Shown piece after piece: positions 6,974 to 58,637 of a stretch of DNA of 64,000 bases. Made by a program: the position numbers and the translations under genes. The stretch is taken from contig NC_043013.1 in assembly GCF_006345805.1 (NCBI RefSeq), positions 5,828,001 through 5,892,000 of the forward strand. Reading direction: 5' to 3'. Below the pieces are notes generated by a model. That model made no database searches. It saw only the letters and a program-made list of their open reading frames with translations, and had not been told where the DNA came from. Position 1 is the first letter of the stretch. Each line of letters begins with the position of its first letter. Origin of the DNA: Octopus sinensis. Lineage: Eukaryota.

Positions 6974-7146
6974 TTTATTTAAAAGCAGCAGAAATAAAGC
7001 AAAAGCTGTTACTCAGAGTCTCACGTTCCTGTTCATTGGACAGTTTAGTTAAAAAAAAAAATTCTTTTAATAAAACTGTCCAACAAGGCGGGAACATGAA
7101 ACTCTGAGTAACAGCTTTTGTTTTATTTCTGCTGCTTTTAAATAAA
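6974..7146. mobile_element. Foldback of Penelope-pLTR-like units with decayed hammerhead motifs
   Basis: Arms at 6974-7046 and 7073-7146. The right arm reads CTGT-CCAACAA-...-GAAA-CTCTGAG-TA-ACAG (7076-7114). Confidence 0.65.
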
Positions 7147-7238
7147 GTATATATATATAAAAAGAAAAGAAAATGTTACAGAGATGTACTTGCATAGCAA
7201 GTGACCTGGTCTGAGAGTGTGTGCTGGAATGAAAACAA

Positions 7239-7527
7239 TTGCAGCATGGAAGGTGTTTATAAGCGATTAAAGAAACACACAAAACCCGTTAGATTCACTT
7301 TAACATTTAAATTTAATTTGCCAAAATATTTTCCTCGCTTTGAGACTGCAGCCAAAATATTAATTTGAATTTGCCAAAAATATTTTCGTCACTTTGAGAC
7401 CTCGACCTGTTCACTGACAAAATTCCGTGCTGCACAGAATTCTGGCAAATTAAATTTAAACGTTAAAGTGAATCTAACGGTTTTTGTGTATTTCTTAAAT
7501 GGCTTATAAACACCTTCAATACTGCAA
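7239..7527. repeat. Foldback element with ~85-bp arms
   Basis: GAAGGTGTTTATAAGC...CCGTTAGATTCACTTTAAC...TTTAATTTGCCA is mirrored at 7443-7527. Confidence 0.8.
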
Positions 7528-7844
7528 AAAGAAAATGGAGAAATTGATATGCCGTCTACAATTTATTGAAGCAAATCTAATTTTGAATAATATCAAACTC
7601 ATACATCCTACAATCATTTCCAAACCCAGTTAATTTGAATTAGAAAAATTAAATTAGATATTCATATTGAATATAGTTAATTGAACATTTCGTCAGGGTC
7701 AGAACTTGATAGGAAAAGGAAGTACATCCCAATGTCTTGTTATGTCATTGGTAAATTCAACATTAAATTCAGATATGTGCGTTAATGCATTCTAATGTAG
7801 TTTTAAAAAACCATTACTTGCGTATATGTGTGTGTTTGTCTCTG

Positions 7845-8150
7845 CTTATTTCTGCGTTCCTTTCTGTTGAAGAGCATAGACTCAAAATGTAAAAAGACTT
7901 TCTCACTTCCCGAGTGTAAAACTACTACATCTGATTGTTGTTTACACACCCATCTTCATCTTTTGTTTTGTTGTTTTGTAAATTCCAACTATATATATAT
8001 ATATATAACGGGAAGGTTTACGAAAATAAACAAAAGACGAAGGCAGGTGGAGTACAAACAAACAATGTATTAGTATGACGCTCAGGAATAGAAATAAAAC
8101 AAGTCTTTTACGTTTCGAGCCTATGCTCTTCGACAGAAAGATACACAAAA
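7845..8150. mobile_element. Tail-to-tail pair of pLTR-like units joined through (TA)n
   Basis: 7859-7990 and the reverse complement of 8008-8141 are homologous. Each begins with a hammerhead-like motif and ends in the shared TA tract. Confidence 0.7.
8104..8141 (-). ncRNA. Minimal type I hammerhead ribozyme-like motif
   Basis: UCUUU-CUGUCGA-A-GAGC(AUAG)GCUC-GAAA-CG-UA-AAAGA: stem I and stem II pair, stem III is the palindrome ACGU, and the triplet is GUA. One core deviation (A6 to U). Confidence 0.65.
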
Positions 8151-8422
8151 AAGAAACAAGGAGAGAAAAAAAATTGCGTGTAGGGGCTAACGATCCAACA
8201 TGTATGTATGTATGTGAGTATGTATATATATTATAATATATGTATGTGTCTATGTATAATATATATCATCATCATTATTTAACACACTTTTCCCCACACT
8301 GGCATGGGCTACATGGTGCAACAGGAAGTGACAAACCTGTACTGAAGGGCTGTGCTAGGCTCTATTTGTCTGTTTTGGCAAGGTTTCTACAGTTGTGTGC
8401 CCTTCCTAATGCCAACCACTTT

Positions 8423-8453
<31 letters not shown>

Positions 8454-8804
8454 TAAGGTGTTGGGTGCTTTTTTTCCATGGCACCAACTCTGGTGAAGTT
8501 ACCAGTATTTGCAAGACAAAACCTTCTCAACAGAGAAAGAATTATAATAGAGAGGGATAAGGAAATTATGATAGAGAGAGGAGCAAGAGTCTTGCTGAAG
8601 AGGTGAATGCATGACTGCTTATCAGGAAGAGAGATAGAGAGAGAGAGAGAGAGAGAAGAGAGAGAGGAGGATAGAAGAGAGATAGAGAGAGAGAAGAGAG
8701 ACTCTATGAGAGATGGATGTCAAGACCTCAGTCAAAACCGTCCAACCCATGCCAGCCTGGAAAACGGACGTTAAACAATGATGACAACGATGATGATGAT
8801 ATGA

Positions 8805-9040
8805 CAAATACCTACAATCCACTCTAAATTTGTTCTCTACTGAGGAGTGCAAAGCAATCTTCATTACAGAGCAAGAAATCTTAAGGTGATAATGATAATG
8901 AAATTATTGTGTGCTACAATAATTATTGCTCACCTGTACTACAATGCTCAGGTGCATTATAAGATACAAGATGATACGAAATTTGTAAATCTTCCTTGTT
9001 ATAAATAAAGAACAAATTTAGAGTGGATTGTAGGTATTTG
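8805..9040. mobile_element. MITE-like element with perfect 32-bp inverted repeats
   Basis: CAAATACCTACAATCCACTCTAAATTTGTTCT at 8805-8836; its reverse complement at 9009-9040. Confidence 0.7.
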
Positions 9041-9154
9041 ACATCTACTTTTAGCATATAGGCACTGACATTCCACTGGTCTTTATTATGATTATATCTT
9101 TATAATAATATACTTAGAAATGAATTTTACCAATGTATTTTTACACTTTTACAT

Positions 9155-9480
9155 GTTTTAGTCATTTTGACTGTGGCCATGCTGGAGCACTGCCTTTTAG
9201 TTGAAGAATTTGACCCTTGGACTTATTCCTTTTAAGCCTGGTACCTATTCTATCGGTCTCTTTTGCTGAACTGCTAAGTTATAAGGATGTAAACACACCA
9301 AGATCGGTTGTCAAGTGATGGTGGAGGGACAAATACAGACACAAAGACACACACACACACACACATATACAACAAGCTTCTTTCAGTTTCCGTCTACCAA
9401 GTTCACTCTAAAGGCTTTGGTCAGCCTGAGGCTATAGTAGAAGAGACTTGCGCCAGGTGCCATGCAGTGGAACTGAACCC
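9155..9480 (-). mobile_element. SINE family B
   Basis: Reverse complement of the family-B tail, (CA)n and head. Confidence 0.8.
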
Positions 9481-9581
9481 AGATCCTGCATCTATAGATA
9501 TGGCTGTTTTTTATATGCTGGCCCCTGATATAATAATGTTAATAATTATATCCCAATTTAAAAGTGTATATATATATATAT

Positions 9582-9890
9582 ATCACCATTTAGCGTCCGC
9601 TTCCATGCTAGCATGGGTTGGACGGTTCAACTGGGTCTGTGAAGCCAGAAGGCTGCATCAGCCGTCTGATCTGGCAGTGTTTTCTAACGCTGGATGCCCT
9701 TCCTAACGCCAACCACCCCGTGAGTGTAGTGGGTGCTTTTTACGTGCCACCCGCACAGGTGCCATACGAGCTGGCAAACGGCCATGAACGGATGGTGCTT
9801 TTTACGTGCCACCGGCATGGGGCCAGCGTGGTTGGCAACGGACACGAGCGATGATGTTTTACATGCCACCGCACCGGCACGGGGGCCAGG
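9582..9890 (-). mobile_element. Short RTE 3'-tail copy
   Basis: Matches 2461-2750 (CCATGCTAGCATGGGTTGGACGG...GGATGCCCTTCCTAACGCCAACCAC). Confidence 0.88.
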
Positions 9891-9899
9891 CGAGCTCGC

Positions 9900-10315
9900 G
9901 AATTAGGTAGTGGGTAGCGATTTTCTTCACTCTGTCAGGGAGTGACGCCCTGCCTGACATGAGTCCCTGGGCTCAGCTGCTCTTGGCTGACAGTACCCCA
10001 GTATGGCCCCTATCCAGGGTTATGGAAGGAGACAACCTTTCAAGAATCTCGGAGTGGAGCGCCGTAGGCGGTTAGTGTTCGATTCAACACTCTTCCGGCA
10101 GCTCCTGCAACCAACTGGTGCCAAGCGTAATGCTCTGCACACCTTTGGATTCTGTCAGCAAGGTCGAGAGAGAATCCTGATAATTAGGCTACCCAGGATT
10201 TTCTTACATAGCCCAGGCCTTCGCAAAACTGGAGAGGACATGAAATGTAAAAACCAGACTGGATTTGTTTATGCACCACTCCATTGTCTCCCGAGACAAA
10301 AGGATGCCAACAACA
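9900..10315 (+). mobile_element. Putative 5' UTR fragment of an RTE-like LINE
   Basis: GC-richer non-coding island with GGCAGCTCCTGCAACCAACTGGTGCCAA, resembling RTE 5' UTRs as I recall them (not verified). Local hairpins TGTCAGG/CCTGACA and GGATTCT/AGAATCC. Confidence 0.35.
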
Positions 10316-10323
10316 CTACACAT

Positions 10324-10363
<40 letters not shown>

Positions 10364-10604
10364 GGGGTTGCTAGTGTTCCCATGTTCTGACTTTGAATGA
10401 GAAACGTAAATAAGCATTACCGTTATACAAGTGGTGTCTTCCATTTCCAGTCCTCTGTAAAAGCATGGGAGAATGTTACCTTGCTTGGGGAAACGAATGT
10501 GGGCTGCCAACAGGAAGTGCAGCCATCCATAGAAAATCTGTTTCAATAAATTCAATCTGACCCATACAAGCATGGAAAAGTGAACTTTAAAACTATGACA
10601 GAAA

Positions 10605-11012
10605 CGATGATGATGATGGTGATGATGATGACGATGATGTCGATGATGATGATGGTAAAGATGATGATGATTATTATGATGATGACAACGACGACAATGA
10701 TGACGGTAATGATGATGATGATGATGAGGATAATAGTGATAATGATATGATAATGATGATGATGATAAGGATGGTGATGATGAAGATAATGGTAAGGATA
10801 ATGATGACATTAAAGATAATGAAGTTAATGATGATGATGATGATGATGATGATGGTAATGATGATGATAATGACGACGACGACGACGACGACGACGATGA
10901 TGATGATGATGATGATGATGATGATAAGACTCCTAATGGTGATGATAGTGATGATAATAATGACGATGACGACGATGACGATGATGATGATGATGATAAC
11001 AACGACGTCGAT
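10605..11012. repeat. (GAT/GAC/AAT)n trinucleotide array extending an RTE-type tail
   Basis: Direct reading; it follows a diverged RTE-tail copy at ~10370-10605. Confidence 0.93.
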
Positions 11013-11491
11013 GAAGCATTATTCTGTTGAAATTCCAAATCCATATAGCTCCTCCTTATTAAATTTTTTAAATAACGGCAGCAACAACATTGGTGAATAT
11101 TAATTGAAACCAAATGTCTCATGCCAAAAACAAAAGAACCCCCCCCCCCAAAAAAAAAAACCAAGTGACTTAGACAAAAAACAAAAAAAGACATGTAAAC
11201 ACAGAAAAAAATAATAACAGCCATGAATACAAGTCAAACCAATTTGTGTTGAGTATTTAACAATCAATAAAGTGTGTGCAAACAGATGGTCCCCATTGTG
11301 CTTTCACTCTATCTACTTTCCGCTTTCTCTCGTTACTCTTTCCCTTCCTCTCACGATATGCTTTCATTTATCTGCACCCTCTCCCCCTCCCACTCCTTCT
11401 CTTCATTCTTTCATTATTTTCATTCCTTTTTCTCTTTAACTCTTTCTTGTTCTTATTCTTTCTCTTATCTGCATTATACTTATTTGCTCTC

Positions 11492-12450
11492 TAAGGCAGC
11501 GAGCTGGCAGAACCGTTAGCATGCCGGGAAAAATGCTTAGTGGTATTTCGTCTGCCGCTATGTTCTGAGTTCAAATTCCGCCGTGGTCGACTTTACCTTT
11601 CATCCTTTCAGGGTCGATTAAATAAGTACCAGTTACGCACTGGGGTCGATATAATCGACTTAATCCATTTGTTTGTCCTTGTTTGTTCCCTCTGTGTGTA
11701 GCTCCTTGTGGGCAGTAAAGAAATAGGTATTTCATCTGCTGTTACATTCTGTGTTCAAATTCCGCCGAGGTCAACTTTACCTTTCATCCTTTCGGGGTCG
11801 ATTAAATAAGTACCAGTTATGCACTGGGGTCGATATAATCGACTTAATCTGTTTGTCTGTCCTTGTTTGTCCCCTCTGTGTGTAGCCCCTTGTGGGCAGT
11901 AAAGAAATAGGTATTTCATCTGCCGTTACATTCTGTGTTCAAATTCTGCCGAGGTCGACTTTGCCTTTCATCCTTTCGGGGTCGATTAAATAAGTACCAG
12001 TTATGCACTGGGATCGATATAATCGACTTAATCCGTTTGTCTGCCCTTGTTTGTCCCCTCTGTGTGTAGCCCCTTGTGGGCAGTAAAGAAATAGGTATTT
12101 CATCTGCCGTCACATTCTGTGTTCAAATTCTGCCGAGGTCGACTTTGCCTTTCAGCCTTTCGGGGTCGATAAAATAAGTACCAGTTACGCACTGGAGTCA
12201 ATGTAATTGACTTAATCCATTTGTCTGACCTTGTTTGTCCCCTCTATGTTTAGCCCCTTGTGGGCAATAAAGAAATAAGAAATGTTAGCATGCCGGGTGA
12301 GATGCCTGGTGGTTATTTCATCTGTCTTTACGTTCTGAGTTCAAATTCTGCCGAGATCGACTTTGCCTTTCATCCTTTCGGAGTCGATAAATTAAGTACC
12401 AGTTGCGTACTGGGGTTGATCTAATCAACTGGCCCCCTCCACCAAAATTT
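11492..12450 (+). mobile_element. Tandem array of SINE family C (Nin-domain-like), 184-bp period
   Basis: GTATTTC units start at 11543, 11727, 11911 and 12095. B box GTTCAAATTCC; GCCTTTCATCCTTTCGGGGTCGAT..AAGTACCAG resembles the Nin/Deu SINE domain. Confidence 0.9.
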
Positions 12451-12459
12451 TGGGATGTT

Positions 12460-12695
12460 GCTGCATCATCATCATCATCATCACAGCTATCACCATGATG
12501 ATAACTGCTACCATCATCATCGCCTTCATCCTCACCACCACCACCACCACCATCCTGCTCCTCCTCTTCCTTCTTGCTATTCCTCCTGCTCCTCCCATCA
12601 TCATCATCATCATCACCAGGATCTATACTCTCACTGCCACTGCCATCACTTCAGCTATTGTTACCACCACCACCATCACCACCACCACCACTATT
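12460..12695. repeat. (CAT/CAC)n low-complexity tract
   Basis: Direct reading. Confidence 0.9.
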
Positions 12696-12944
12696 ATTTC
12701 TACATCCACTTTTCTATGCTGGTATGTGTTGGACGAGGCTTTTTAGTGGTGGTGGTGGTGATGGTGGCAATTAATTCATTAACTGAACCATCCATTTTTT
12801 CACTGTTCTGTTTTTGTGACAGGGAAGGATTTCAACCAGAATGCATAAAGACCAGGGATAGACACCACAAGGCATCACACATCTTCAATGCTTTAACAAT
12901 TCTGCAAATTCCTCCCACTGCCCTGAAACTTTATCAGTCTCTGA

Positions 12945-15120
12945 AAGGATGAAAGGTAAAGTTGCCTTTAGCTGCATTTGAACTCAGAGTATAGCGGTTT
13001 GGAACAAATATTCTTTTCTAGAGTCCCAGCATTTTTGGGGGATTGGGGGTGTCAGTCGATTAGATCAACCTCAGTATGTAACTGGTACTTAATTCATTGA
13101 CCCCGAAAGGATGAATGGCAAAGTCAACCTCAGTGGAATTTGAACTCAGAACATAAAAACAGCCAAAATACTGCTAAGCATTTCACCCGGCGTGCTAACC
13201 ATTCTGCCAGCTTGCCACCCTGTTCAGAACAAATATTAAAACAACCGAAACACTCAGACCTCAAGGTGGACATGTTTAGTAGTCAATAAGTTGGCAAAAC
13301 TGTTAGAATGTTCAACAAAAGGCTTTCTGGCTTTTTAGATTCTGAGTTCACATCTAACTGAGGTTAATTTTGCCTTTTATCCTCTTAGGGTCCATGGAAT
13401 AAGTACCAATTAAGCACGGGGGTTGATGTAATTGACTAATCACGTCTCTTAAAACTTCAGGCCTTGTGCCTATAGCAGAAACGATTATTATTATTATTAT
13501 TATTATTTTCTCTTTATCACAGATTTTGTTGGAGCTCCTGCAGTCTTGCATGTGTAGCAGGCTTACTACCTGCACCCAATGGTACCATGCTATCCATTCT
13601 TTTCTGCTCTGTAATACTTTCCTGATTATTCTGGCCGTGCCAAGGAGGCAAACCTTTTGTAACACTTCTCCTGGGCACTCTATTCCAATTTCCTTTATAT
13701 TCCTCTTGATGCCTTCTGATACTCTTCCCAAGGACCCAACCATAATTGGCACTATCTTCACCTTCTTCATTTTCCATAGCTGGGCTATTTCATACTTAAG
13801 AGGGTTGTATCAATCTATCTTTTTGCTTTCCTTCTTGACTATTCGTGGGCCAAAGGGGTATGCAACATCAACTATATAGCATATCTGGTGCACCTTGTCC
13901 TCCACCACTAGGTCTGGTCTGTTATGCTCTTCTTCTTCTTCTTATTATTATTATTATGATGATGATGATGATGATGAAGGTGGTGAGCTGGCAGAATGGT
14001 TAGCATGCAAGGTGAAATGCTTAGTGGTATTTTGTCTGCTGCTATGTTCTGAGTTCAAATTCCACCAAAGTCGACTTTGCCTGTCATTCTTTTGGGGTCA
14101 ATTAAATAAGCCCAAGTTACACCTTTTTTGGCAAAATTTGAAATCATCATCATCATCATTATTATTATTATTATCATTATTATTCTTAAGATGGAGAGCT
14201 GGAAGAATTGTTAGCATGCTGGGTGAAATGCTTAATGGTAATTTCAACCATCGCTGTGTTCTGAGTTCAAATTTCACTGAGGTCGACTTTGCCTTTCATC
14301 CTTTCAGGGTTGATAAAATAAGTACCAGTTGAACCTTGTGGTCAGTGTAATTGACTCATCCCCTCCCTGCAAAAATTGATGCCCTTGTGGCAAAATGAAA
14401 ACCATTATTATTATTATTATTATTGTTATTATTATTGTTATTATTGTTATTGTTATTATTATTATTAAGGTGGAGGGCTGGCAGAATCATTAGCACACTG
14501 GGTTAAATGCTTAGCGGTATTTTATCTGCTGCTACGTTCTGACTTCAAATTCCGTTGAGGTCAACTTTGTCTTTCAGCCTTTCAGAGTCAATGAATTAAG
14601 TACCAGAGAAGCACTGGGGTCAAGGTAATTGACTTGTCCCCTCCCCTAAAATTTCCGGTCTTGTGCCTATAGTAGAAAGGATTATTATTATTAGTAGTAG
14701 TACTAAGATGGCAAGCTGGTAGGATTGTTAGCATGCTCGACAAAATGCTTAGCAACATTTCATGTGTCTTCACATTCTGAGTTCAAATTCCGCCAAGGTC
14801 GAATTTGCCTTTCATCCTCTTAGGGTCGATAAATTTAGTACCAGTGAAACACTGGGATCAATGTAATCAACTAGCCCCCTCCCCCAAAATTTCAGGCCTT
14901 CTACATATATTATTTTTACGGAATTGTTAGAATGCTGGTTAAAATCCTCAGTGATATTTTGTCGTTCTGTGCATTCTGAGTTCAAATTCTGCCAAGGTTG
15001 ATTTAGCCCTTCATCCTTTTGGGGTTGATAAATTAAGTACCGGTCGAGTACTGGGGTTGATGTAATCAACTAAACCCTCTTCCAAAATTTCAGGCCTGGT
15101 GCCTATAATAAAAAGGGTTC
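12945..15120. mobile_element. Cluster of SINE family C copies (minus at ~12945-13220; plus at ~13290, 13977, 14190, 14467, 14707, 14925)
   Basis: Repeated GAGCTGGCAGAAT..TTAGC / GAGTTCAAATT / GCCTTTCATCC blocks separated by (ATT)n. Confidence 0.85.
13485..13930 (-). pseudogene. 3' remnant of an RLE-type non-LTR retrotransposon (R4/Dong-like) with (TAA)n tail
   Basis: Minus-strand translation EHNRPDLVVEDK...IVDVAYP...KKID*YNPLKYEIAQLWKMKKVKIVPIMVGSLG...LQKVCLLGTARIIRKVL: a PD-D restriction-like endonuclease C-terminus with one stop, ending in TAA repeats. Confidence 0.88.
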
Positions 15121-15805
15121 TTCTTATTTATTTATTTATTCATTGACCCTTTATTACACATGATGCAATCTTAAATCTTATAGCAGGATAACCTCACCTT
15201 TTCTAGTATTAACCATTCAATTACAGAGTAGAGGTTCACATATTTAATGTCGGGAGAACCAAAACACCTCATTAGAAATAATTATGTAATGAGGAGAGGA
15301 CAACATAAAGCTCAATGAATAGATATTAATTTAATCCCATCAGCAAATATGGGAGACAACTCCAAACATATTTATGCCTTATTAGACCTCCTCAGTGTCG
15401 TATAGTTCACATCATATTTGCTGGAGTTGTGGTGAAGGAGACACTGAGTAGAATCATTGTATTTAAATCTCGGTATAAACACGAAGCATGAATACATTTG
15501 GAAAATCAATTTAATTTTTGCTATTTAAACAAGGGGGTGTAACTTGGTTTGTAAGCCTTGTAGTCGAGACAGAGTTATGTACCTTACCATAATCCAGGTC
15601 CACTGTGATGAAAGTATTAGTGAAATTTTGGCTCCCAGCCTTGCAATTTCTAGAGGACATGGTCACTCTACTTGCGAGAAATAGCAGCTAAATCTCTCCC
15701 AGATTATACCTTACCATGTTAAAAAAAGATGAAACTTGATGGTATAGTCTCAATATATTATATATGAATAAAAGACTGGAATGCTTTTGATTTCACATCT
15801 GCTGG

Positions 15806-15840
<35 letters not shown>

Positions 15841-15844
<4 letters not shown>

Positions 15845-16314
15845 GAGGGAATATTATTCCAAATTTACAGGGAAAAATTCAATTTAGCAATTCTAAATCA
15901 AATTTCACAAAATATAATATCTCTCTATATATAAATTAGAAAAAAACCCCACCTTCTATCAATTCAATAATGAAAAACTAAATTATACCATCTAGAAAAT
16001 TACATCTTATAGAAAGATTAAATATAAGATAAAACATATAACGATGATGAAGTAATGTGCAAAATAGTAAATAAAACGTTTTATTTATTATTTTGCACAT
16101 TACTTCATCATCGTTATATGTTTTATCTTATATTTAATCTTTCTATAAGATGTAATTTTCTAGATGGTATAATTTAGTTTTTCATTATTGAATTGATAGA
16201 AGGTGGGGTTTTTTTCTAATTTATATATAGAGAGATATTATATTTTGTGAAATTTGATTTAGAATTGCTAAATTGAATTTTTCCCTGTAAGTTTGGAATG
16301 ATATTCCCTCATAT
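15841..16314. repeat. Spacerless near-perfect 474-bp palindrome flanked by (TA)n
   Basis: Centre AAAAC|GTTTT at 16077/16078. Arms are 237 bp with three mismatches seen by eye. An arm-end fragment recurs at ~58050-58090. Confidence 0.95.
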
Positions 16315-16324
16315 TATATATATA

Positions 16325-17190
16325 TAGAGTGCGATGGGTAAATTGTCATCATTTTATATTTTTTATTTTGCTCATGCGCAGTGTTTGCTTTTTATTTTGT
16401 CAACTATACAGTATAGTTGGGCACCGTCTGTAAGAAAAAGAGCACCATGACACAATTCACTCTAACAAAAATTTGGAAATGACACACTGTGCTTAGATTG
16501 GCATTCATGCTGGAAGCTCCAATATGAACATTTCAGAGAGTTTTGGCGTCAATCTGAGGATATGTAGTGAGAGTGATAAAAACCAAACATCCAGTCAACA
16601 TCATGGTGTTTGGAGTGATCACTAGTGATGGTAGCTTTATGCCTCCATTCACCTTCCCACATGGCCTCAGACTCAACATGGAGGCCTACGTCAAGTGTCT
16701 GGAGGAAGTTGTGCTGCCCTGGGTCAAGAGGGTGGCTACTGGAAGATCTTATATCTTGCAATAGAACTCTGCACCACGTCACACAACCAGGAGAACTAAG
16801 TCGTGGCTGTCAGACAATTTCTGTGACCACACAACCCCTAACATCTGGCCACCTAACTCCCCAGACTGCAACCCCCTTGATTATTATGTGTAGGACACAG
16901 TTGAGCAAGAGACCAACAAAACTCCTTGTAACACCAAAGATGAACTGAAGCCAAAGATTATGACAGCATTCACCAACTTAAACAAGGAGACCATTTCAAA
17001 GAGTTGCAGGAGATTCCGAAGTCTTCAAGAGGCTGTGGTTGAAGCTAATGGCGATTTTATTGAATAAATTTACTCTTTAGTATTTCAAGATATTTTAAAG
17101 TAATTTTGGTAAATATATCTGTTAAAATGCGATGTCAGTGTTATTTTCATTTTTGTGTAATTTAGACAACAGTTTAGTCACTGCACCCTG
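16325..17190 (+). mobile_element. Internally deleted Tc1/mariner DNA transposon, DD37D (maT) family
   Basis: Degenerate TIRs TAGAGTGCGATGGGTAAATTGTC and (reverse complement) CAGGGTGCAGTGACTAAACTGTTGTC, TA flanks, transposase remnant inside. Confidence 0.88.
16567..17067 (+). pseudogene. DD37D transposase catalytic-domain remnant
   Basis: In-frame KHPVNIMVFGVITSDG...YILQ*NSAPRH...WPPNSPDCNPLDYYV*...VVEANGDFIE*. There are 37 residues between the mutated second D position and the final D, and two internal stops. Confidence 0.88.
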
Positions 17191-17241
17191 TATATATATA
17201 TATATATATACACACACACATAGATAGATAGATAGATAGAT

Positions 17242-17272
<31 letters not shown>

Positions 17273-17539
17273 TAGATAGATAATTTTCATCATCATCTTC
17301 ATCATCACCATTTTAATATCCACTTTTCCATATTTGCATTTCCATTCTTCTGCAAGAATATGACTCGTCACAGAAAAGTATAACCTTGCTTGGAAACAGG
17401 TGAGGGTTGGCAACAGGAAGAGCATCTGGCTGTAGAAAATCTTCTCAAAAAAATTCTGTCTGACCCATGCAAGCATGAACAAGTAGACATTAAAATGCTG
17501 CTGCTGCTGCTGCTGATGGTGACGATGATGATAATTATA

Positions 17540-18430
17540 TTTCTTTCCTACCCACAAGGGGCTAAACACAGAGGGGACAAACAAGGACAGACAAAGAGAC
17601 TAAGTCGATTACATTGACCCCAGTGTGTAACTGGTACTTATTTAATCGACCCCGAAAGGATGAAAGGCAAAGTTGACCTTGGCGGCATTTGAACACAGAA
17701 CGTAACGGCAGACAAAATACGGCTACGCATTTCGCCTGACGTGCTAACGTTTCTGACAGCTTGCCGCCGCCGATGATGATAATGTCTTCCATTTTTGCAA
17801 GTTCCTTCCACTTGGATTTGTTTCACACCTTTTACCCAACTTCCTTAGCATTAGATCTTCTCCCCAACACAGTCTTCTCTCATTTCTATTTGATCTGATA
17901 TCTCTTACACTCAGTTCTTTGTTTTCGTTACTGTCATTTGCCATTCTTCCTATACACTTACATTCCTCATCCAATGGAGCTTGTCAATCTCATTCCTTTC
18001 TTCCTTTCACACACCTTTTTCCGTATTTTTTTCCTACTCTAGGTACAAGGCCTGAAATTTTTGGGGAGAGGGGCCAGTTGATTAGATTGACCCCAGCATG
18101 CAACTGGTACTTAATTTATTGACTCTGAAAGAATGAAAGGCAAAGTCAACCTCGGCAGAATTTGAACTCAGAACATAAAGACAGACGAAATACCTATTTC
18201 TTTACTACCCACAAGGGGCTAAACACAGAGAGGACAAACAAAGACAGACAAATGGATTAAGTCGATTATATCGACCCCAGAGCGTAACTGGTACTTAATT
18301 TATCGACACCGAAAGGATGAAAGGCAAAGTCGACCTCGGTGGAATTTGAACTCAAAACGTAAAGACAGACGAAATACCGCTAAGCATTTCACCCAGTGTG
18401 CTAACGATCCCGCCAGTTCGCCACCTTGCA
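17540..18430 (-). mobile_element. SINE family C copies (monomer ~17540-17770; dimer ~18030-18430)
   Basis: Reverse complement of the 11492-12450 units. Confidence 0.85.
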
Positions 18431-18464
18431 CCTTTTCCTGTATTCAGTGCTCATGATTTGCTAC

Positions 18465-23016: not shown

Positions 23017-23191
23017 ATACAGTTCTATATTTAAGAGATGAGGAATTATGTACTTTATTTACAATTGACAAATATTTGTCCTCATTTTGTTCGTTATTAA
23101 CACGTTTCGGCTGATATATCCTCCAGCCTTCATCAGGTGTTTTGGAGAAATTTCGATCCTGGGTTCTCATTCCTAAGGTATTTTTTGATGC

Positions 23192-23223
<32 letters not shown>

Positions 23224-23302
23224 TCACAGCCTGGAATTGAACTCAGAATCTTGGGGTTAGTAGCTTGCGCTCTTAACCACTACGCCATATGCCTGTGGGC
23301 AT
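23017..23302 (-). mobile_element. tRNA-headed SINE-like element with a hammerhead-bearing (Penelope pLTR-like) 3' half
   Basis: Minus strand: TGGCGTAGTGG (A box), GAGTTCAATTCC (B box), (AAT)n, then AACAC-CTGATGA-AGGCTGG...TCAGCC-GAAAC-GTGTT. Confidence 0.7.
23099..23141 (-). ncRNA. Hammerhead ribozyme-like motif with intact core boxes but missing cleavage-site nucleotides
   Basis: CUGAUGA and GAAA are intact, with a 6-bp stem II (GGCUGG/UCAGCC) and a 5-bp stem I (AACAC/GUGUU). Only one nt lies between GAAA and stem I, so stem III and the NUH triplet appear deleted. Confidence 0.65.
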
Positions 23303-26014: not shown

Positions 26015-26725
26015 GTGTGTATATATATAAGGTGACATGAACTGGAAAATAGAACTCAAAATATGAGTATATGTAAATTTTTATTAATACTTAGCAGCAC
26101 CAACAGAGTGACTCAAGGACCAAGGGTTTCATGCATTGGCACTTCTGCTAAATATTAATATATGTAAGATTATTGAGGTTAATTATAACAAGAAATAATA
26201 TTGAGGAGTTAAAACATTAAAAAAAATAGTTGGTTTTAGTCCACCGTTATGTAAACTTAATGCAGCCATCTGCAGTTGTTGAATACCACACCACAAAGAC
26301 AACTACTACCGTTTAGGGTGGAAATCACCCCCCTCCATCCAACTACAAAGAGCATGCATTGCCTACATTTGACATCGATTTAGTTTCCCCACATGCAAGC
26401 TGTTTCATGTTTGATGTAGGCAAGAATGTCTCTCCTTACCAGAAGTTGTTAACTTTCTGATTTGGAACTGTACAAGAGTGGATGGCCTAATGGTTTGAAA
26501 CTAACAGCAGACTTAAAGCTCTGAATCCTTTATATATAATTCAAGTAATTTTTGTCAATAAATCTGTAATAATGTATCTAGATAATAGAATTCTTATCAT
26601 GTGAACCCTTCAACGATACAGTAATTCTGTACAAGCGAAAACACATAACAACATTAGAGACAAGATATTTGCTCCAGCAGGTCGTTATTTTGCTTTTATC
26701 TACAGGATAATACTTCCAAACTGAA

Positions 26726-32019: not shown

Positions 32020-32945
32020 TAATAATAATAATAATAATAATGATAATGGTTTCAAATTTTAGCACAAGGCCAGTAATTTTAGTGGGTGGGGATCAGTCAA
32101 TTACATCAACACCAGTACTTGACTGGTACATGACAGAATTTGAAATCAGAACACAAGGGGCGAGAAGAAATGCAGATAAGTATTTTGTTCTACATGCTAA
32201 CAATTCTGCTGGCATGCTGCCTTAATAATAACCCTTTCTACAATAGGCACAAGGCCTGGAATTCTGGGGGAAGAAGGTTAGTCAATTACATTGACTCCCA
32301 GTGCGTGACTGGTACTTATTTTATCGACCTCTGAGAAGATGAAAGGCAAAGTCGACCTTGGTAAGAATCTGAACTCAGAACTGAGAGAAATGTCACTAAA
32401 CATTTCATCCAACATGCTAATAATTCTGCCAGCTCACTGCCTTCAATAATAATAATAATAATAATAATAATCCTTTCTATTATAGGCACATGGCTTGGAT
32501 TTTGTGAGGAGGGGGACAATTGACCACATTGACTCCAGTACTCAACTGGTACTTAATTTATCGACCCAGAAAGGATGAAAAGCAATGTCGACCTCGGTGG
32601 AATTTGAACTCAGAACATAACGGCAGACGAGACACTACTAAGCATTTCGTCCAACATGTTAATGAATCTGCCAACTCACTGCCTTAATAATAATAATAAT
32701 AATAATAATAATAGTAATGATAATAATCCTTTCTACTATAGGCACATGGCCTGGATTTTGTGTGGAGGGGGAAATCGATCACATCGACCCAGTACTCAAC
32801 TGGTACTTAATTTATCGACCTTGAAAGGATGAAAAGCAAAGTTGACCTCAGCGGAATTTGAACTCAGAATGTAGCAACGGGCGAAATACTATTAAGTATT
32901 TCGCCCGGTGTGCTAACGATTCTGCCAGCTCACCATCTTAATAAT
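32020..32945 (-). mobile_element. Head-to-tail cluster of four SINE family C copies
   Basis: Repeated (AAT)n-CCTTTCTA..ATAGGCACA..GGTACTTA..GGATGAAA..TTTGAACTCAGAA..CTGCCA units. Confidence 0.85.
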
Positions 32946-33223
32946 AATTTGGAAATCTGTTAACAACTAGGAAACTGTTAAGGTATATAAAGTGTTTGTT
33001 TGGAGTTGAAACTGAAAACTCCTTTACTACTCTGATGCTCCTGGTTCTATTGTGATCCTCCTTTAAGAATTAGTCAGAGGAATGCAATGGAAGGAGGGAA
33101 ACATTTCCAGAGATGTGACAGTGTGAAGATCCAGCCTTTTGCATCAATGAATAAACTCAACTTTAGTTTTACTTTTACTTCTTGTTTGTACATCCAAACA
33201 TTGTGTGCATATGTGTATGTATG

Positions 33224-42586: not shown

Positions 42587-42591
<5 letters not shown>

Positions 42592-43174
42592 GAGATGTGG
42601 AACACGAGTTGTGATATATAAAAAAGGAAATAAAGAAAATGCTGACAAAATAATTTCAGTAATTTCAGTAATTTAATTAGGTGAAAGTTCTTTTTACCGG
42701 TTGCGCATTTGTTATGCTTATCAAAAGTTTTTTTCCTCTTATCAGATAAGAGGAAAAAACTTTTGATAAGCATAACAAATGCGCAGCAACCGGTAAAAAG
42801 AACTTTCACCTAATTAAATTACTGAAATTACTGAAATTATTTTGTCAGCATTTTCTTCATTTCCTTTTTATATATATATATATTATATATATATATAAAA
42901 GGAGATGTGGAACACGAGTTGTGATATATAAAAAAGGAAATAAAGAAAATGCTGACAAAATAATTTCAGTAATTTCAGTAATTTAATTAGGTGAAAGTTC
43001 TTTTTACCGGTTGCGCATTTGTTATGCTTATCAAAAGTTTTTTTCCTCTTATCAGATAAGAGGAAAAAACTTTTGATAAGCATAACAAATGCGCAGCAAC
43101 CGGTAAAAAGAACTTTCACCTAATTAAATTACTGAAATTACTGAAATTATTTTGTCAGCATTTTCTTCATTTCC

Positions 43175-43180
<6 letters not shown>
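42587..43180. mobile_element. Tandemly duplicated (310-bp period) foldback with decayed hammerhead motifs, embedded in (TA)n
   Basis: GGAGATGTGG occurs at 42591 and 42901. Each unit holds a ~260-bp palindrome centred on CTTATC-A-GATAAG (42744 and 43054). An arm reads CTTT-TGATAA-GCAT(AACAA)ATGC-GCAA-CCGG-TA-AAAAG. Confidence 0.85.
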
Positions 43181-44499: not shown

Positions 44500-44507
44500 C
44501 ACAGCAG

Positions 44508-48404: not shown

Positions 48405-48455
<51 letters not shown>

Positions 48456-51434: not shown

Positions 51435-51493
<59 letters not shown>

Positions 51494-52739
51494 TCAATGG
51501 GCTCCTGTCTACTAATTGTCAATCTGAGGTTATAGCGGAAGATACCAGCCAAACAGCCATATAAATGTGTTTATTATTGGTATATTTGAGAATCCACAGC
51601 CCTGTGGGGCAGCTACTGTTGTCTGCTCTCTTGGACTGTAGGTTCAACTTTAGCTATATGCATTTTTCTGATATAGAAATATGTAGCACAGAGTATTAAG
51701 ACTTATTAAAGCTTCACCAACAAGGTTGTATTGTAGCAGAGTAATATTATAGATAGTGTCTTCAATTTCTTCTCTTAGTTAAAATTGCTTATTTTTGTTT
51801 TTATGTAAAGCTAAAAATAACAGCCAACAGCTCCCAAGTAGAAGAGACGAGAAGCATATAACAAAACGTATCATTTTCAAAGATGTTCCTTCCTAACACT
51901 CCATTTTCAACACTTTGGAGAATCAAATGTTTCAGAAAGAATACGGCCTCAAATGAAATTATGTGATTTCAAGGTTTCCTTAAACTTCTAAAAGTTGTCG
52001 TTTTCAAAGTAATGGTGCAATTTCAATAGGTATAGTTGGCAATAATTCTTTCTAATTTTGTCAAAAAGCCTGCAATTTTGAGGGGAGGGGTAGGTTGATG
52101 ACATCAATCTCAGTACTTGACTAGTACATGTTTTACTGACCCCCTAAAGGCTGAAAGGCAAAGCTAACTTGGTCACTGATTTGAATTCAGCATATAAAGA
52201 GTCTGCAGAAACATTCCTCAGCATTTTTCTGATAATGGGACCAAAAAAAAAACTCACTAGAATAAATTCTAACATAGGCACAAGATTGTTGTGATCATCA
52301 GATGTTCATCTTTGCCATGCAAGCATGGTTTGAATGGGTTTTCTATAGCACAGCACCTTATCGTTTATCATGGCCCTTATCTCTTTTGTGACATTCAGCA
52401 TTATCACTTCTTTCCGTGCTTTGTGCAAGTTCTTACTACTTAAATTGCTTATCAGTTTTTTTTTTTGCATTCAGCTGTTATATTACGTATGCATCACATG
52501 TCTATACCAGCTCAGTCTTCTCTTTTTCTCACCGCAACATATTCTTCTGATACCCAGTTTTACTCAGTTCAGCTCATTTGTGCTCCATCGTTCATTTGTA
52601 CCAACATCATACATCCAGTGCAGCATGCACTATAATAATTAATCCTTACCAACGACACAAATTCATGTAATTTAGGAGAAGGTGTAATTAATTGAATGGA
52701 CCTCAGGACAAGACAAGTCCACCTTGTGTACACTTGCCT

Positions 52740-53050
52740 TCATGATACGCTCAAAGCCTCACTGAAGAACTTTGAGAGCAATCCCAACAGCTGGGAAATG
52801 CAAGCAGAAGGCTGCCCTGCCTGGCAAAGCTGCACCAACAGAGATGTCACCTCCTATGAACAGAACAGGATAGCAAGGGCACAAAGAAAATGTGAATTGG
52901 GTAAGTCCAGAGTCAACTCATTACCTTCAGTCCCAGCAGACTACCAGTACACATCACACTGATTGGGCACAGCCAGACACACTGAATTCCATCTTCTCCC
53001 ATATAATATCCTTGGTCAGTGTCGACAACGATGGATGGACTAACTAACAA
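52740..53050 (+). pseudogene. 3' fragment of a second RTE-clade LINE
   Basis: DTLKASLKNF...SWE...AW...SYEQNRIARAQRK...KSR then LIGHSQTH*, typical of RTE (BovB-like) C-termini. Confidence 0.75.
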
Positions 53051-53179
53051 GACTAGTATCTTACTTTTTGTGGTTGAGTGGCAAAGGTGATCCAGACATG
53101 ATTTGCATTCAGGGCATAATTAAATATGGGGAGTCAGTTAGTCTAGCTCAGTTTCCATCAGTCACAAATTTCCCAACTG

Positions 53180-54460
53180 TTAATAAATAATAATAACAAT
53201 AACAATCCTTTCTACTATAGGCACATGGCCTGAAATTTTGGGGGAGGGGACCAGTCACTTACACCAACCCCAGTGCTCAACTGGTACTTTATTGACCCTG
53301 AAAAGGATTGAAAGGCAAAATTGACCTTCATGGGGCTCCAATTGAGAATGTAAAAATGGATGAAATGCAGCTAAGTATTCTGTCTGGCATACTGATGATT
53401 CAGCTAGCTTACTGCCTGAATAATAATAATAATCCTTTCTACTATAGACACAAGGTCTGAAATTTTGGGGGAGAGGACTATCGACCCCAGGGTTTCACTG
53501 GTACTTAATTTATCAACCCCAAAAGGATGAAAGGCAAAGTCAACCTTGGCAGAATATAATCTTTGAAAACATAAAGTCAGAAATTTTGAGGGGAAGGGAT
53601 TATTTGATACTATCAATCCCAGTACTTGACTGTTTGTTTATTTTATTGACCTTGGAGGGATAAAAGGTAAAGTTGGTCCCGGCGAGATTTGAACTTAGAA
53701 CATTCTTTTCTACTCTAGACACAAGGCCTCCTTTCGGGGAGGAAATTTTGGGGAAGGGGGCTAGATGATTAGATCGACCCCAGTACACAACTCGTACTTA
53801 ATTTATCGACCCCAAAAAGATGAAAGGCAATGTTGAACTCAGCGGAATTTGAACTCAGAACATAAAGAGACAAAAATCCTGCTAAGCATTTCACATGGTG
53901 TGCTAACGTCTCTGCCAGCTCACCACTTTAGAACATTAAGAGCCAAAATAAATGCCACTAAAAATTTTGTCTGATGTACTTATGATTCTGCCAGCTCATT
54001 GCCATAATAATAATAATAATAATAATAATAATCCTTTCTAAAATAGGCACAAGGCCTGAAATTTTGTGGGGAGGGGGCTAGTTGATCCCCTGACCCACTT
54101 CTTAAGTGGTACTTACTTTATCTATCCTGAAAAGATGGATGAAATGCCACTAAGCATTTTGTCTGATGTGCTAATAGTTCTGCCAGCTTGTAATAATAAT
54201 AATAATAAATAATAATAATAATAATGATAATAATAATGATAATAATAATAATAATAATGATAATAATAATAATAATTTCAAATTTTGGCACAAGGCCAGC
54301 AATTTCAAAGGAGGAGGTAAGTCAATTATATTGGGCCTCCAGTGTTCAACTGGTACTTATTTTATCAAACCCAAAAGGATGAAAGGCAATGTTGACCTCG
54401 GCAGAATTTGAATGCAGAATGTAAAGACGAATAATAATAATAATAATAATGATAATAAAA
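53180..54460 (-). mobile_element. Cluster of SINE family C copies with (AAT)n spacers
   Basis: About six partial or nested units carrying family-C motifs. Confidence 0.85.
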
Positions 54461-54536
54461 ATGAATGAAATTCACTAAAGCTGTGATAAGCCCCGGGAGA
54501 GACGGAAGCAATGAAGGGAAAAAGGAAAAAACTCAC

Positions 54537-54598
54537 CGATATGATCTCTGCTTGCCTGTCTTCATGCTGTGGCAGTGGTAGGTTCTTCCCAAACTACA
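54537..54598 (-). CDS. Candidate internal exon of the same unidentified minus-strand gene
   Basis: Acceptor TCCTCTTATCCTTTCTGCAG (alternative TAG 5 nt downstream) and consensus donor G|GTGAGT. Open as CSLGRTYHCHSMKTGKQRSY (62 nt) or FGKNLPLPQHEDRQAEIIS (57 nt). Confidence 0.55.
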
Positions 54599-55819
54599 CT
54601 GCAGAAAGGATAAGAGGAGGACCCTTTCTTAGAGAAACCCAACACACAATTACTTTATTTATTTTTTGTTTGTTTGATATTCAGTCTTAGATTTGTTTTG
54701 AAATGAAAATTTCTAAATTTATTTGAAATGAAAACTTCTAAAATTATTTTGTAAAAAAAAAAAAAAAAAAAAAGAAAAAAAAGGGAGGGAAAACAACCCC
54801 AGTTAAAAAAAAAAGGCATAAAAATCTTTGGGGGAAACATACCAATTCAAAAGCTATTTTCATCTAAAGATGTGGGGAAGTAAAGATTTAAGGGAATTGG
54901 TTAAATAGTTGGTGAAAAAATAAAAAATAGACAGATGTGATAATCTGTTGATTAACTCTTTGGTTTTCAGATTACTGTCAAATGTAATCCTTACTTATTC
55001 ACATTGTTTAAAATTAGTCAGGCATTATCTTGTAGCTTTGGGATTTCATTGATGCGGTATATTTTTACAATGATATTGTTGGGTAGGTGTGAGAGGCGGG
55101 ATATGACTGGTTTAAATGCTAATGGGTTTGATAAGTTGAGTTAAATCTCTGGTTTAGGGGCGCAGTTTGGGGATAAAAAAAAAAAAGGTTCACTGTCTCA
55201 GAAGAGATTGATAAAGGTTTAGTGATGAGCGGATATGAGGTAAATTTACCCTTCAGTAAGATGCCAATTTAGATTACTATGTCAAAGGTAATGCTTTGAA
55301 TTAGTCATGATCAAGAGGGTTATCATCAATATTTGCTTGTAACTTGATTTTTTTTTTTGTGTGCAAATTTCAAATTTTCTCAGCAGGTGTATAAATATCA
55401 ATGATTGACAATTATGTATTTACAATAAAATTATGGATTATACATTGGTGCTGTATTTAATTGACCATGTTGCAATATTTTGAATGCCACTGTGAAGAAC
55501 TTCATGACTTTTGCTATCAAAATACTTGTTCTTGTTGGACAAATTCAGAAACATCTATCTCTGATTCCTCCGAAGACAAATGTTTTCTTTCTCGTTTATA
55601 TTTTCTGAGTCTTCAAGTGTAATCCTTCCAAAGTCACAATTGCTACTTGCTGAAGAAGGCATATTGGTCATTAAAAAAGAAATTAAATGTCCACTTCAAA
55701 TGTAGATAATTCTAATAGTATTTACAATAGAGGCAGAAAGGGCTTTATCTTGCATTAATTTGAAGCTCTAATATTTTGATGACTTGCATCTTTATTTTGA
55801 GAATGATATCATTGGGTAT

Positions 55820-56124
55820 GGAGGTGCAATGGCCCAGTGGTTAGGGCAGCAGACTCGCGGTCGAAGGATCGTGGTTTCGATTCCTAGGCCGGGCGTTGTG
55901 TGTGTTTATTGAGCAAAAACACCTAAAGCTCCACAAGGCTCCGGCAGGGGGTGGTGGCGACCCCTGTTGTACTCTTTCGCCCCAACTTTCTCTCACTCTT
56001 TCTTCCTGTTTCTTGAGTAACGCTGCGATAGACTGGCGTCCTGTCCAGCTGGGGGGAACACATACGCCACAGAAACCGGGCTCATGAGCCTGGCTAGGCT
56101 TGAAAAGGGCGCAGAAATAAATAA
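55820..56124 (+). mobile_element. Distinct CpG-rich tRNA-derived SINE with 12-bp TSD
   Basis: TGGCCCAGTGG A box, GGTTTCGATTCC B box and (AAAT)n tail. ATCATTGGGTAT at 55808-55819 and ATCATAGGGTAT at 56125-56136. Confidence 0.88.
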
Positions 56125-56504
56125 ATCATAGGGTATATATGAGAAACTGGATCTGGCTAGTTTGAACATACAATGGGTAGAATATTTGGGCTGGATACTA
56201 AAGGGTTAAAGCAGGCAGGTAGCATATCAAAGATCTAAGGTTTCTATTTTCAGCAGTTCAGTGAATTAATCACTGTTTAAAAGCTTAGCTCAGAGATATC
56301 ATGCAACACTTGCAATATATCTGCTCTTAAGATTCACACATTGGCAAGTTAAATAACACCTCATCTTCATCACCCCTACTGAGGATTCAGTGCTATATAT
56401 ATATATATTATATATATATATATGAACTAAATGACACAGGAAGAGGTAAAATAGATACTCTAGCCTATCCACTTGGTTACTGTATTCCCCAAGAATAATA
56501 TTGT

Positions 56505-56688
56505 TTCTAATATAGGCACAATACATGAAATTAGTGGGATGAGGTCAGTCAGTACAACTGACCTCAGTACTTTGATGGGTACTTTATTTTATTGACCTAG
56601 AAAGGATGAAATTGGTGGGAGTTAAACTCAGAACATAAAAACAGCCAACAAGGCTTTTTCCCTGATGCTCCAATCTACCAACCAACCC

Positions 56689-56732
<44 letters not shown>

Positions 56733-56960
56733 TGATGATGATGATGTTTCAAATGTTGGCACAAAGCAAGGAATCTTTTAGGGAGAGGGTGTTAGCTGAT
56801 TACAATGATCCCATACTTGACTGGTACTATATTTTATCAACCCTAAAGGATGAAAGGCAAAGTTGACCTCAGCGGGATTTGATCTCAGAGCATAAAGAGC
56901 TGGAAGACATGCTGCTAAGCATTTTGTCTGACACTCAAACAATTCTGCCAATCCACAACC
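56505..56960 (-). mobile_element. Diverged SINE family C copies
   Basis: GGATGAAAGGCAAAGTTGACCTC and related motifs. Confidence 0.7.
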
Positions 56961-57131
56961 AAATAATAAATAATAATAATAATAATAATAATGAAAATAG
57001 TAATAATAATAATAATAATTTGCTATATAGGCAAAGTTGATAATATATTGTAATGTCAAAAATATGATTAAATATAAATATACCTTTAGTGTACATGAAG
57101 GTGCATATTTGTATATGTATGCATGTTTACC

Positions 57132-57166
<35 letters not shown>

Positions 57167-57900
57167 GAAAGATATAAAAATGAAATAAAAGCACAATTAA
57201 TATATAAACACACACAAATAAAGGATCTGAGGTTCAGAGTGCTCCAAAACCCTAATCACCTCCTTATATGGATAAAATACCTACTTTCTATAAATTTCAA
57301 GTGAAACTGATCACAGCTGACTCTTTCACTTACATTGATCCTGTTACACTCATCTAGCTTTCATAAAATTTATTGCAAGACATATCTTCTCTCTTTATCC
57401 TCACATCCCACTTCAGGTAATACTTGAAAAAAACTCCCCAAAACCCAACTTCAGTTTTTTCATTCTGGTTCTCTGTATGACCCACCATCAGAGAGAGGAC
57501 ATCTCCTAAACATCCTTGGTAAAGGGGAGTGGGGAAACAGGAGGGTGTGATCTTTACAATGTACCTGGTTGACACCTAAGCAACTTCTCACACTGTCTCC
57601 TTTGCATCTTAGACTTTCCTGCAGAAATTTATCTTAAACTGGTAATGCTCCTCCATCCAGTACTACAATGTCAAAGAACTTCAAAAAGCTCAACCCTGAA
57701 AGCCATCTTGGTAACATTATATCTATCTATCTATCTATCTCTCTATCATATATTAATGTGTTTTTATGTAATGGTTTATATAGAAACTATTAAATATTAA
57801 ACTTAAGGATTACTCAATACTTTGTGGTGGAGTACATATTTATTAACTTTCACAAAGAAAAAGGTGACAGTGACTTTGAAGTTCTAACTTGCTTTCCTTG

Positions 57901-57944
57901 ACAGTCTAATGAAAGTGAATAAGACAAAACTTCAAAGTCACTGT
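57901..57944 (+). ncRNA. Decayed minimal hammerhead-like motif
   Basis: ACAGT-CTAATGA-AAGTGAATAAGAC-AAAA-CTTCAAAG-TC-ACTGT: stem I is perfect and the triplet is GUC, but both core boxes carry G-to-A changes. Its 3' part is mirrored at 57867-57883. Confidence 0.5.
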
Positions 57945-57945
57945 T

Positions 57946-57987
<42 letters not shown>

Positions 57988-58590
57988 TTAGAGATAAAAT
58001 ATATATAGATATATATATTTATACTGTAAAATTAGATTTAATCCTAAATCTAATTTTTCCCTGTAAGTTTGGATTTACTCCCTAATATTATTATTATTAT
58101 TATATATATATATGTGTATATTAAAGACCATGTGTCAAAGACGAAGGAAAAGAATTGAGGAAACGAACTGCCGACAACATCAATAGGAGAGGAGAAACTG
58201 AACAAAACCTGGTACAAAGTAGAGGAGACCATTGAACCCCAGTGCAGACAACCTCTCTAAAGCCAGTGGCAAGATATAATAAAATGCCCCCAGTGCATAT
58301 GAAGTGGTTGATGATAGGAAGGGTATTTAGTTGTAAAATCCATGCCTGAAAATATGCCATACCAACAAAGACAGGCAATTTTCTTTGTTGTGAGATGTTG
58401 TGAGATTCATCTAATCCTTGCTAAAATGGAAAACTGGTCATACAACAATGATGGAGAGATGATGAGAGATCGCTATTAATTATTTTTTAATAAGCCTACT
58501 GGCTATGTGCGACATCTGTGCCTAAATAGACACTGGGATTCTATACATAGCACTGACAGAGGAATTGCTGTTATCTCTAGCCTTGGGCAT

Positions 58591-58637
58591 CTACCATTGA
58601 CAAGGCCAAAGAAGGCCGAAACCACATGATCTGTAAG
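58591..58637 (+). ncRNA. Decayed hammerhead-like motif
   Basis: CTACCA-TTGACAA-GGCC(AAAGAA)GGCC-GAAA-CCACATGA-TC-TGTAAG. Confidence 0.45.

What the first reader, a model, noticed from the sequence alone, without database searches (positions are those of the whole stretch)
6974..58637. Recurrent minimal hammerhead motifs in unrelated (TA)n-associated foldback elements
Seen: the layout stem I - CUGANGA-like - stem II - GAAA-like - short near-palindromic stem III - UH - stem I recurs with different stem sequences. Sites: 7006-7043 and 7076-7114; 7859-7897 and 8104-8141; 23099-23141; 26112-26142 (3' half only); 42690-42727 plus its mirror and duplicate; 57901-57944; 58591-58637. Most lie in inverted repeats near TA tracts. 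Known: Penelope hammerheads have palindromic stem III and cleave as dimers, and these elements often leave inverted pLTRs. Inference: several non-autonomous ribozyme-bearing families colonised TA microsatellites here. No Penelope ORF is visible in the window.
Basis: partly seen in the sequence, partly recalled or inferred. Interest (0 to 1): 0.75.

Follow-up and report, generated by a model that had tools for sequence, protein, structure and literature searches.

The report
Penelope jumping-gene ends with hammerhead motifs
The nine motifs are decayed pieces of seven repeat families, four of them the ends of protein-coding Penelope-type jumping genes, each family carrying the hammerhead RNA motif already known for such elements; this is mostly ordinary, except that three abundant families carry a fixed change in the motif's core that would likely weaken self-cutting.

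Summary
The motifs are real, but the window alone does not show it: a blind scan recovers 1 of 9 sites and does not beat shuffles. Copies elsewhere in the genome settle it. The sites belong to seven repeat families, and each family's majority sequence folds as a minimal type I hammerhead with at most one core change, different stems and a self-complementary stem III. Four families (A, B, C, E) lie directly downstream of reverse transcriptase/GIY-YIG genes elsewhere, so they are truncated ends of coding Penelope-like elements, not non-autonomous families. G is a ~340-nt non-coding tandem unit, like a retrozyme; D and F are unlinked. B is two separate insertions, not a foldback, and C and G are not beside TA tracts. 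All this matches published Penelope anatomy. Less ordinary: fixed core changes U4C (A), A6U (B) and A13C (E), and a tRNA-like head in C's terminal repeat. The scan had already noted the tRNA-like head and two-armed TA insertions on other DNA of this genome. Cleavage is untested.

The parts
6906..7147 (.). Family A: head-to-head pair of terminal-repeat ends between TA tracts; left arm carries a ~67-nt tail (6906-6972), right arm ends at the short site
   Evidence: arms 87.7% identical over 81 nt; coding link in L252
7006..7043 (-). Family A hammerhead, decayed (3 core mismatches); family core CCGACGA..GAAA..GUA (U4C)
7076..7114 (+). Family A hammerhead, decayed
7835..7990 (+). Family B: 5'-truncated 3' end of a coding Penelope-like element, ending at the TA tract 7991-8008; hammerhead 7859-7897, decayed
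8009..8202 (-). Second, separate family B insertion into the same TA tract, tail-to-tail; hammerhead 8104-8141 with only the family-wide A6U change
23017..23301 (-). Family C terminal repeat with tail: tRNA-like head with A- and B-box-like motifs (23220-23294; box consensus recalled), internal (AAT)n (23192-23219), hammerhead 23099-23141 lacking 3 nt at the cleavage site
26035..26165 (-). Family D: long arm cut inside the hammerhead (3' half at 26105-26142) joined to an inverted stub (26143-26165); family core is the U3-A8 variant
42588..42870 (.). Family E head-to-head pair with a ~30-nt tail on the left arm; motifs at 42690-42727 (-) and 42760-42800 (+); U3-A8 core with GCAA in place of GAAA (A13C)
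42898..43180 (.). Identical second copy of the family E pair (283 of 283 nt, period 310): local duplication or assembly artefact
57748..57946 (.). Family F head-to-head pair: long arm on - (3' half of the motif at 57867-57895), short arm on + with hammerhead 57901-57944
58470..58823 (+). Family G: one ~340-nt non-coding unit of a family that occurs in tandems elsewhere; U3-A8 hammerhead 58591-58637

Best explanation
The nine sites are decayed copies of seven repeat families whose majority sequences fold as minimal type I hammerheads; four families are the terminal repeats of coding Penelope-like retrotransposons, and all seven were likely inserted by Penelope enzymes. Shown: family membership, the hammerhead layout, two fixed 3' end points in A, C and E (short end and tail), head-to-head arms, TA targets for A, B, D, E and F, and RT/GIY-YIG genes upstream of the A, B, C and E motifs in longer copies. 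Inferred from published work on the lizard Penelope protein (PMC11167929): the enzyme cuts both strands of an AT-rich target and starts copying at two neighbouring sites on the RNA, which gives one arm with and one without the tail. Inferred here: the two 5'-truncated copies join in the middle, often at a short palindrome, to make the foldback. The hammerhead would cut weakly, as a dimer or with protein help, and is likely not needed for insertion. G is likely a non-coding retrozyme-type passenger of the same enzymes.
For: Majority cores with <=1 change in 7 of 7 families, with stems that differ between families; stem III is palindromic or nearly so in six and a 3-bp hairpin in D. Many departures in A sit at CpG positions (G5 39/54, G8 42/54, C7 42/54), as expected from decay after insertion. 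E: locus L246 has an inverted arm, an RT (PF00078, E 3.9e-8) and GIY-YIG (PF01541, E 1.5e-6), both above Pfam cut-off, then a direct motif and tail, with TA on both sides. B: motif downstream in the same orientation in 16 of 30 GIY-YIG loci, one being the query's own place. C: head follows the ORF end in 27 of 30 loci by blastn, one being the query's own. A: collinear decayed ORF in 1 of the A loci (L252, best domain E 1.7e-8 with a profile that held no A sequence). Arms of one insertion are more alike than arms of different insertions: A 0.051 vs 0.080 (22 insertions, 0 of 5000 permutations), E 0.016 vs 0.020 (16 insertions, 3 of 5000). Inverted arm upstream in 9 of 27 A and 13 of 25 E loci picked by motif alone. 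Inverted 5' copy, one-sided tail and (TA)n bias are described for Penelope-like elements (bioRxiv 10.1101/2021.04.23.441226, passages).
Against: No excess over shuffles in the window alone. No coding link for D (14 other loci), F (19; one weak hit, E 0.002, not clearly linked) or G (25 other places). The A link rests on one locus. The B ORF scores below Pfam cut-off (E 0.011, 0.022) and the C fragment has no GIY-YIG Pfam hit; their assignment rests on blastp to the E proteins (1e-26 to 1e-30 for B, 1e-5 for C). E has only a 2-bp stem I under the standard reading. Within-family compensatory changes were not shown. RNA reads on C lie on both strands with no pile-up of ends. Arm similarity could also come from conversion after insertion.
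Confidence: 0.9

Rival explanations
1. All seven are non-autonomous ribozyme-bearing families that borrow Penelope enzymes.
For: Window copies are short and non-coding. G has a ~340-nt non-coding unit in tandems. Many C copies start at the tRNA-like head.
Against: Coding copies with the same terminal repeat exist for A, B, C and E, and 5' ends vary from tens of bases to 4.2 kb in E.
Confidence: 0.1
2. The foldbacks are miniature DNA transposons with terminal inverted repeats, and the hammerhead look is chance.
For: Short palindromic elements in TA tracts; no excess over shuffles in the window; Rfam lists no hammerhead among the best 150 of 196 matches.
Against: Arms are unequal by a fixed tail, centres vary, most motif-picked A copies have one arm only (18 of 27), majority cores pass the descriptor, and RT genes lie upstream.
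Confidence: 0.02
3. In families A, B and E the fold is kept but catalysis is lost; it serves as a protein-binding RNA element or is a tolerated relic.
For: Core changes are family-wide: C at position 4 in 92 of the first 100 listed of 1184 exact matches; T at position 6 in 41 of 41 B copies; GCAA in 100 of the first 100 listed of 1343 matches. Hammerhead mutants still inserted in vitro (PMC11167929).
Against: U4C keeps enough activity in a viroid and A6C still cleaves slowly (PMC3088659, passages); protein can assist cleavage. Position 7 varies freely in B while its neighbours hold, which fits continued constraint on the core.
Confidence: 0.35

Closest known systems
Minimal hammerheads in terminal repeats of animal Penelope-like elements (Cervera and de la Pena 2014, PMC4209133; text parts 1-2 of 4 read)
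   Same: Type I layout, extra base before stem II (B, C, F), palindromic stem III, U3-A8 core variant, many families per genome, mostly single truncated copies, some opposite-strand pairs close together.
   Different: Family-wide U4C, A6U and A13C cores; I saw none of these in the parts read.
Neptune/Nematis-type and Penelope/Poseidon-type elements (bioRxiv 10.1101/2021.04.23.441226, passages; PMC11167929, parts 1-2 of 4)
   Same: RT followed by GIY-YIG; inverted 5' copy; tail on one end; AT-rich targets. A, B and E have the CX2-5CxxC linker described for Neptune/Nematis; the C fragment lacks it.
   Different: No tree was built, so clade names are by motif only. Tail of A is ~67 nt against the 30-40 nt described. 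C has a tRNA-like head in its terminal repeat.
Animal non-LTR retrozymes (PMC7229834, passages; bioRxiv 10.64898/2026.07.22.740005, part 1 of 5)
   Same: Family G: ~340-nt, AT-rich, non-coding unit with one type I hammerhead, in head-to-tail repeats.
   Different: G is old (65-81% identity to the window copy), mostly 1-3 units, often with an inverted arm; circular RNA not tested.
Schistosome SINE-like hammerhead elements transcribed by RNA polymerase III (review PMC6765202, passages)
   Same: Promoter-like head followed by a hammerhead (family C).
   Different: In C the head is part of a coding element's terminal repeat.

Membership tests
Penelope-like elements | RT plus C-terminal GIY-YIG endonuclease in the element | tested here: met
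   E by Pfam; B by blastp to E, Pfam below cut-off; C endonuclease end only; A one decayed locus
Penelope-like elements | RT plus GIY-YIG for families D, F, G | tested here: inconclusive
   No linked ORF in 14, 19 and 25 other places; small samples
Penelope-like elements | Inverted 5'-truncated copy, head-to-head | tested here: met
   A 9 of 27, E 13 of 25; also seen in C, D, F, G
Penelope-like elements | Tail on one end only (two fixed 3' ends) | tested here: met
   A, E, C; long and short arms in F
Penelope-like elements | RT groups with Penelope clades in a tree | not tested
   Homologues carry PF00078, PF01541, PF26215 but almost none are named; no tree built
Minimal type I hammerhead | Core C3/U3-U4-G5-A6-N7-G8/A8-A9, G12-A13-A14-A15.1, U16.1-H17 in families C, D, F, G | tested here: met
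   F majority has G12A (8 of 13) at a CpG site, C lacks the cleavage site in 27 of 59 copies
Minimal type I hammerhead | Same core in families A, B, E | tested here: not met
   One fixed change each: U4C, A6U, A13C; they work like the family at best
Minimal type I hammerhead | Stems I and II paired, stem III self-complementary | tested here: met
   stem I only 2 bp in E and 3 bp in D
Minimal type I hammerhead | Compensatory changes within a family | not tested
   Stems differ between families, but no within-family pair count was run
Minimal type I hammerhead | Self-cleavage after H17 | not testable with these tools
   Needs a bench assay; fragmented cDNA reads show no end pile-up on C
Non-LTR retrozyme (family G) | Short non-coding tandem unit with a type I hammerhead | tested here: met
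   Units ~330-345 nt apart in L112; several units in L113; partial extra units in many of 24 loci
Non-LTR retrozyme (family G) | Circular RNA | not tested
   No reads laid on G
tRNA-derived promoter (family C head) | Match to a tRNA model | tested here: not met
   ARAGORN 0 genes in window and 7 loci; Rfam no tRNA match in 2 stretches; only A/B-box-like motifs at tRNA spacing, from recalled consensus

The most novel reading that the evidence does not exclude
Three independent, high-copy Penelope lineages in one genome each fixed a different catalytic-core change (U4C, A6U, A13C) while keeping the hammerhead fold, and kept spreading; the fold in these elements would then be a non-cutting or protein-dependent RNA element. 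With canonical families in the same genome as controls, this makes the open question of what Penelope hammerheads are for directly testable.
Probability: 0.25. Interest if true: 0.55.

Novelty: new member of a known kind. Interest (0 to 1): 0.3.

Why it matters
It corrects how such repeats are read: short TA-flanked foldbacks in this genome are ends of retrotransposons, not DNA transposons, and the hammerhead is a usable tag for them. The role of Penelope hammerheads is still open (PMC11167929 found cleavage dispensable in vitro). A set of abundant families with canonical and altered cores side by side is a ready test panel.

Tried and rejected
Rfam on the window gave only hairpin and simple-repeat matches among the best 150 of 196. 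The window-only shuffle test was negative. Pfam on decayed B fragments found nothing (one search was in the wrong frame). No solved structure matched the B ORF. The protein atlas was unavailable. tRNA models did not match the C head. Sequencing runs: no RNA holder listed for the C stretch; three raw RNA runs of a related label carried C reads on both strands with no end pile-up, and no reads at all for E, which is no test. The 3'-end classifier misplaced the short end for E, so its TA count for E is not used; one A locus (L251) is a tail copy scored as short. 'B is one foldback' was rejected (72.6% identity, tail-to-tail). 'C is a SINE' was rejected as the whole story, since the head follows the ORF. 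The Lunse et al. paper on dimeric variants was not held; I know it only through a review. Paper searches. One search listed no paper on natural A6U or A13C hammerheads, which is a narrow search; supplements of PMC4209133 and PMC3088659 were not read and may list such variants. Duplicate loci were dropped before counts (15; 22 own or duplicate loci; 3 A and 5 E loci).
Full report
Setting. The window lies at G000:C17:5828001-5892000 in a 2.72-Gb animal genome. It is AT-rich and full of microsatellites. An earlier scan note calls the organism an octopus; I did not check that.

Observation. On their own they do not beat chance: my descriptor found 0, 1 and 5 hits at up to 0, 1 and 2 core mismatches, against shuffle means of 0.008, 0.22 and 2.7 (394 shuffles), and recovered only 8104-8141. 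Rfam listed no hammerhead among its best 150 of 196 matches. I therefore judged the motifs by their families.

Families. Each site matched a repeat family in the own genome, with first-look candidates of 1758 (A), 2149 (B), 5494 (C), 1595 (D), 857 (E), 699 (F) and 342 (G); these are not copy numbers. From 54, 41, 59, 18, 34, 13 and 24 aligned copies, each majority sequence passes the descriptor with at most one core change, while 1-10 of 3000 shuffles per family pass. What is independent is that other copies supply the parts missing in the window: the cleavage site in C (present in 32 of 59 copies), the 5' half of the core in D, a 6-bp stem I in G, and G5, G8 and A13 in A. Stems differ between families while the core holds. 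D, E and G use the U3-A8 pair reported for Penelope hammerheads (PMC4209133). In 631,425 flanking bases with these families masked there were 3 perfect-core and 9 near-perfect hits against shuffle means of 0.03 and 1.7, so more families exist nearby.

Coding links. E: locus L246 holds an inverted arm at the short end, a broken RT gene (PF00078, E 3.9e-8) and GIY-YIG domain (PF01541, E 1.5e-6), then the direct motif with its tail, between TA tracts. B: 3 of 24 other loci run upstream into RT and endonuclease sequence; a search with that piece gave 12,856 candidates, and 16 of 30 fetched loci have the B motif downstream in the same orientation (read by hand; one is the query's own place). C: locus L091 runs upstream into an endonuclease-like gene end; in 27 of 30 loci found with it, the head of C follows the stop (one is the query's own place). 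A: one locus, L252, has a collinear decayed gene (best domain E 1.7e-8), and its upstream sequence is shared with three other A loci. D, F and G showed no link in 14, 19 and 25 other places. The window itself has no such gene. A, B and E have the cysteine linker described for Neptune/Nematis elements; no tree was built.

Anatomy. A, C and E end at two fixed points, so one arm has a tail (about 67, 35-40 and 30 nt). Among loci picked by motif alone, 9 of 27 A and 13 of 25 E have an inverted arm upstream, and 20 of 27 A copies meet a TA run within 14 nt of the scored end. The two arms of one insertion are more alike than arms of different insertions. In C the foldback centre sits on a short palindrome that the coding element already has. 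B in the window is two separate copies facing into one TA tract. C's neighbouring (AAT)n is inside the element, and G is not beside a TA run. G is a ~340-nt non-coding unit found in head-to-tail repeats, sometimes with an inverted arm, as described for non-LTR retrozymes (PMC7229834, passages).

Mechanism. Published work shows a Penelope protein cutting and extending both strands of AT-rich DNA and starting at two neighbouring RNA sites, the gap being the tail; its hammerhead cut only with protein and was not needed for insertion (PMC11167929, parts 1-2 of 4). The arms here fit that: two truncated copies, one from each start site. That they join at a short palindrome is my inference. Cleavage of any motif here is untested; RNA reads on C lie on both strands with no pile-up of ends, from a library type poorly suited to show them.

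Core changes. A has C at position 4 in 92 of the first 100 listed of 1184 exact matches. B has T at position 6 in 41 of 41 copies while position 7 varies. E has GCAA in all of the first 100 listed of 1343 matches and only a 2-bp stem I. U4C and A6C are known weak natural variants (PMC3088659, passages). One narrow search listed no paper on natural A6U or A13C hammerheads; supplements were not read.

tRNA-like head. C's terminal repeat starts with A- and B-box-like motifs at tRNA spacing (consensus recalled), but ARAGORN and Rfam do not call it a tRNA. Four earlier scan notes on other DNA of this genome describe a tRNA-headed Penelope element; I had reached this reading before that call, and their agreement is not independent support.

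Verdict. Real, largely explained by known Penelope biology: new members of a known kind. Interest 0.3. The altered cores are the part worth a bench test.

Noticed in passing
window 753-982: A ~230-nt foldback with no clear hammerhead core by eye; family unknown.
   Followed up: no
window 4867-6708: Three abutting 4-nt-type arrays, the first two forming a large inverted pair.
   Followed up: no
window 42588-43180: The E pair is duplicated with 283 of 283 identical bases; recent duplication or assembly artefact.
   Followed up: partly
window 60483-60530 (-): Hammerhead-like stretch with 2 core mismatches from the blind scan; may be chance.
   Followed up: no
L064 and L070 flanks; L114; L037; L099; L182: Further hammerhead motifs outside the seven families, including a second U4C type seen twice.
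   Followed up: no
L273:1200-1500: A different endonuclease-like gene end sits directly upstream of a family A motif, without A's usual upstream sequence; possible chimera.
   Followed up: partly
L044, L071, L074, L124: Remnants of other Penelope-type genes in the flanks.
   Followed up: no
window 11469-18436, 32445-32948, 53303-56992: Many copies of other short interspersed repeats, some in 184- and 254-nt tandems.
   Followed up: no
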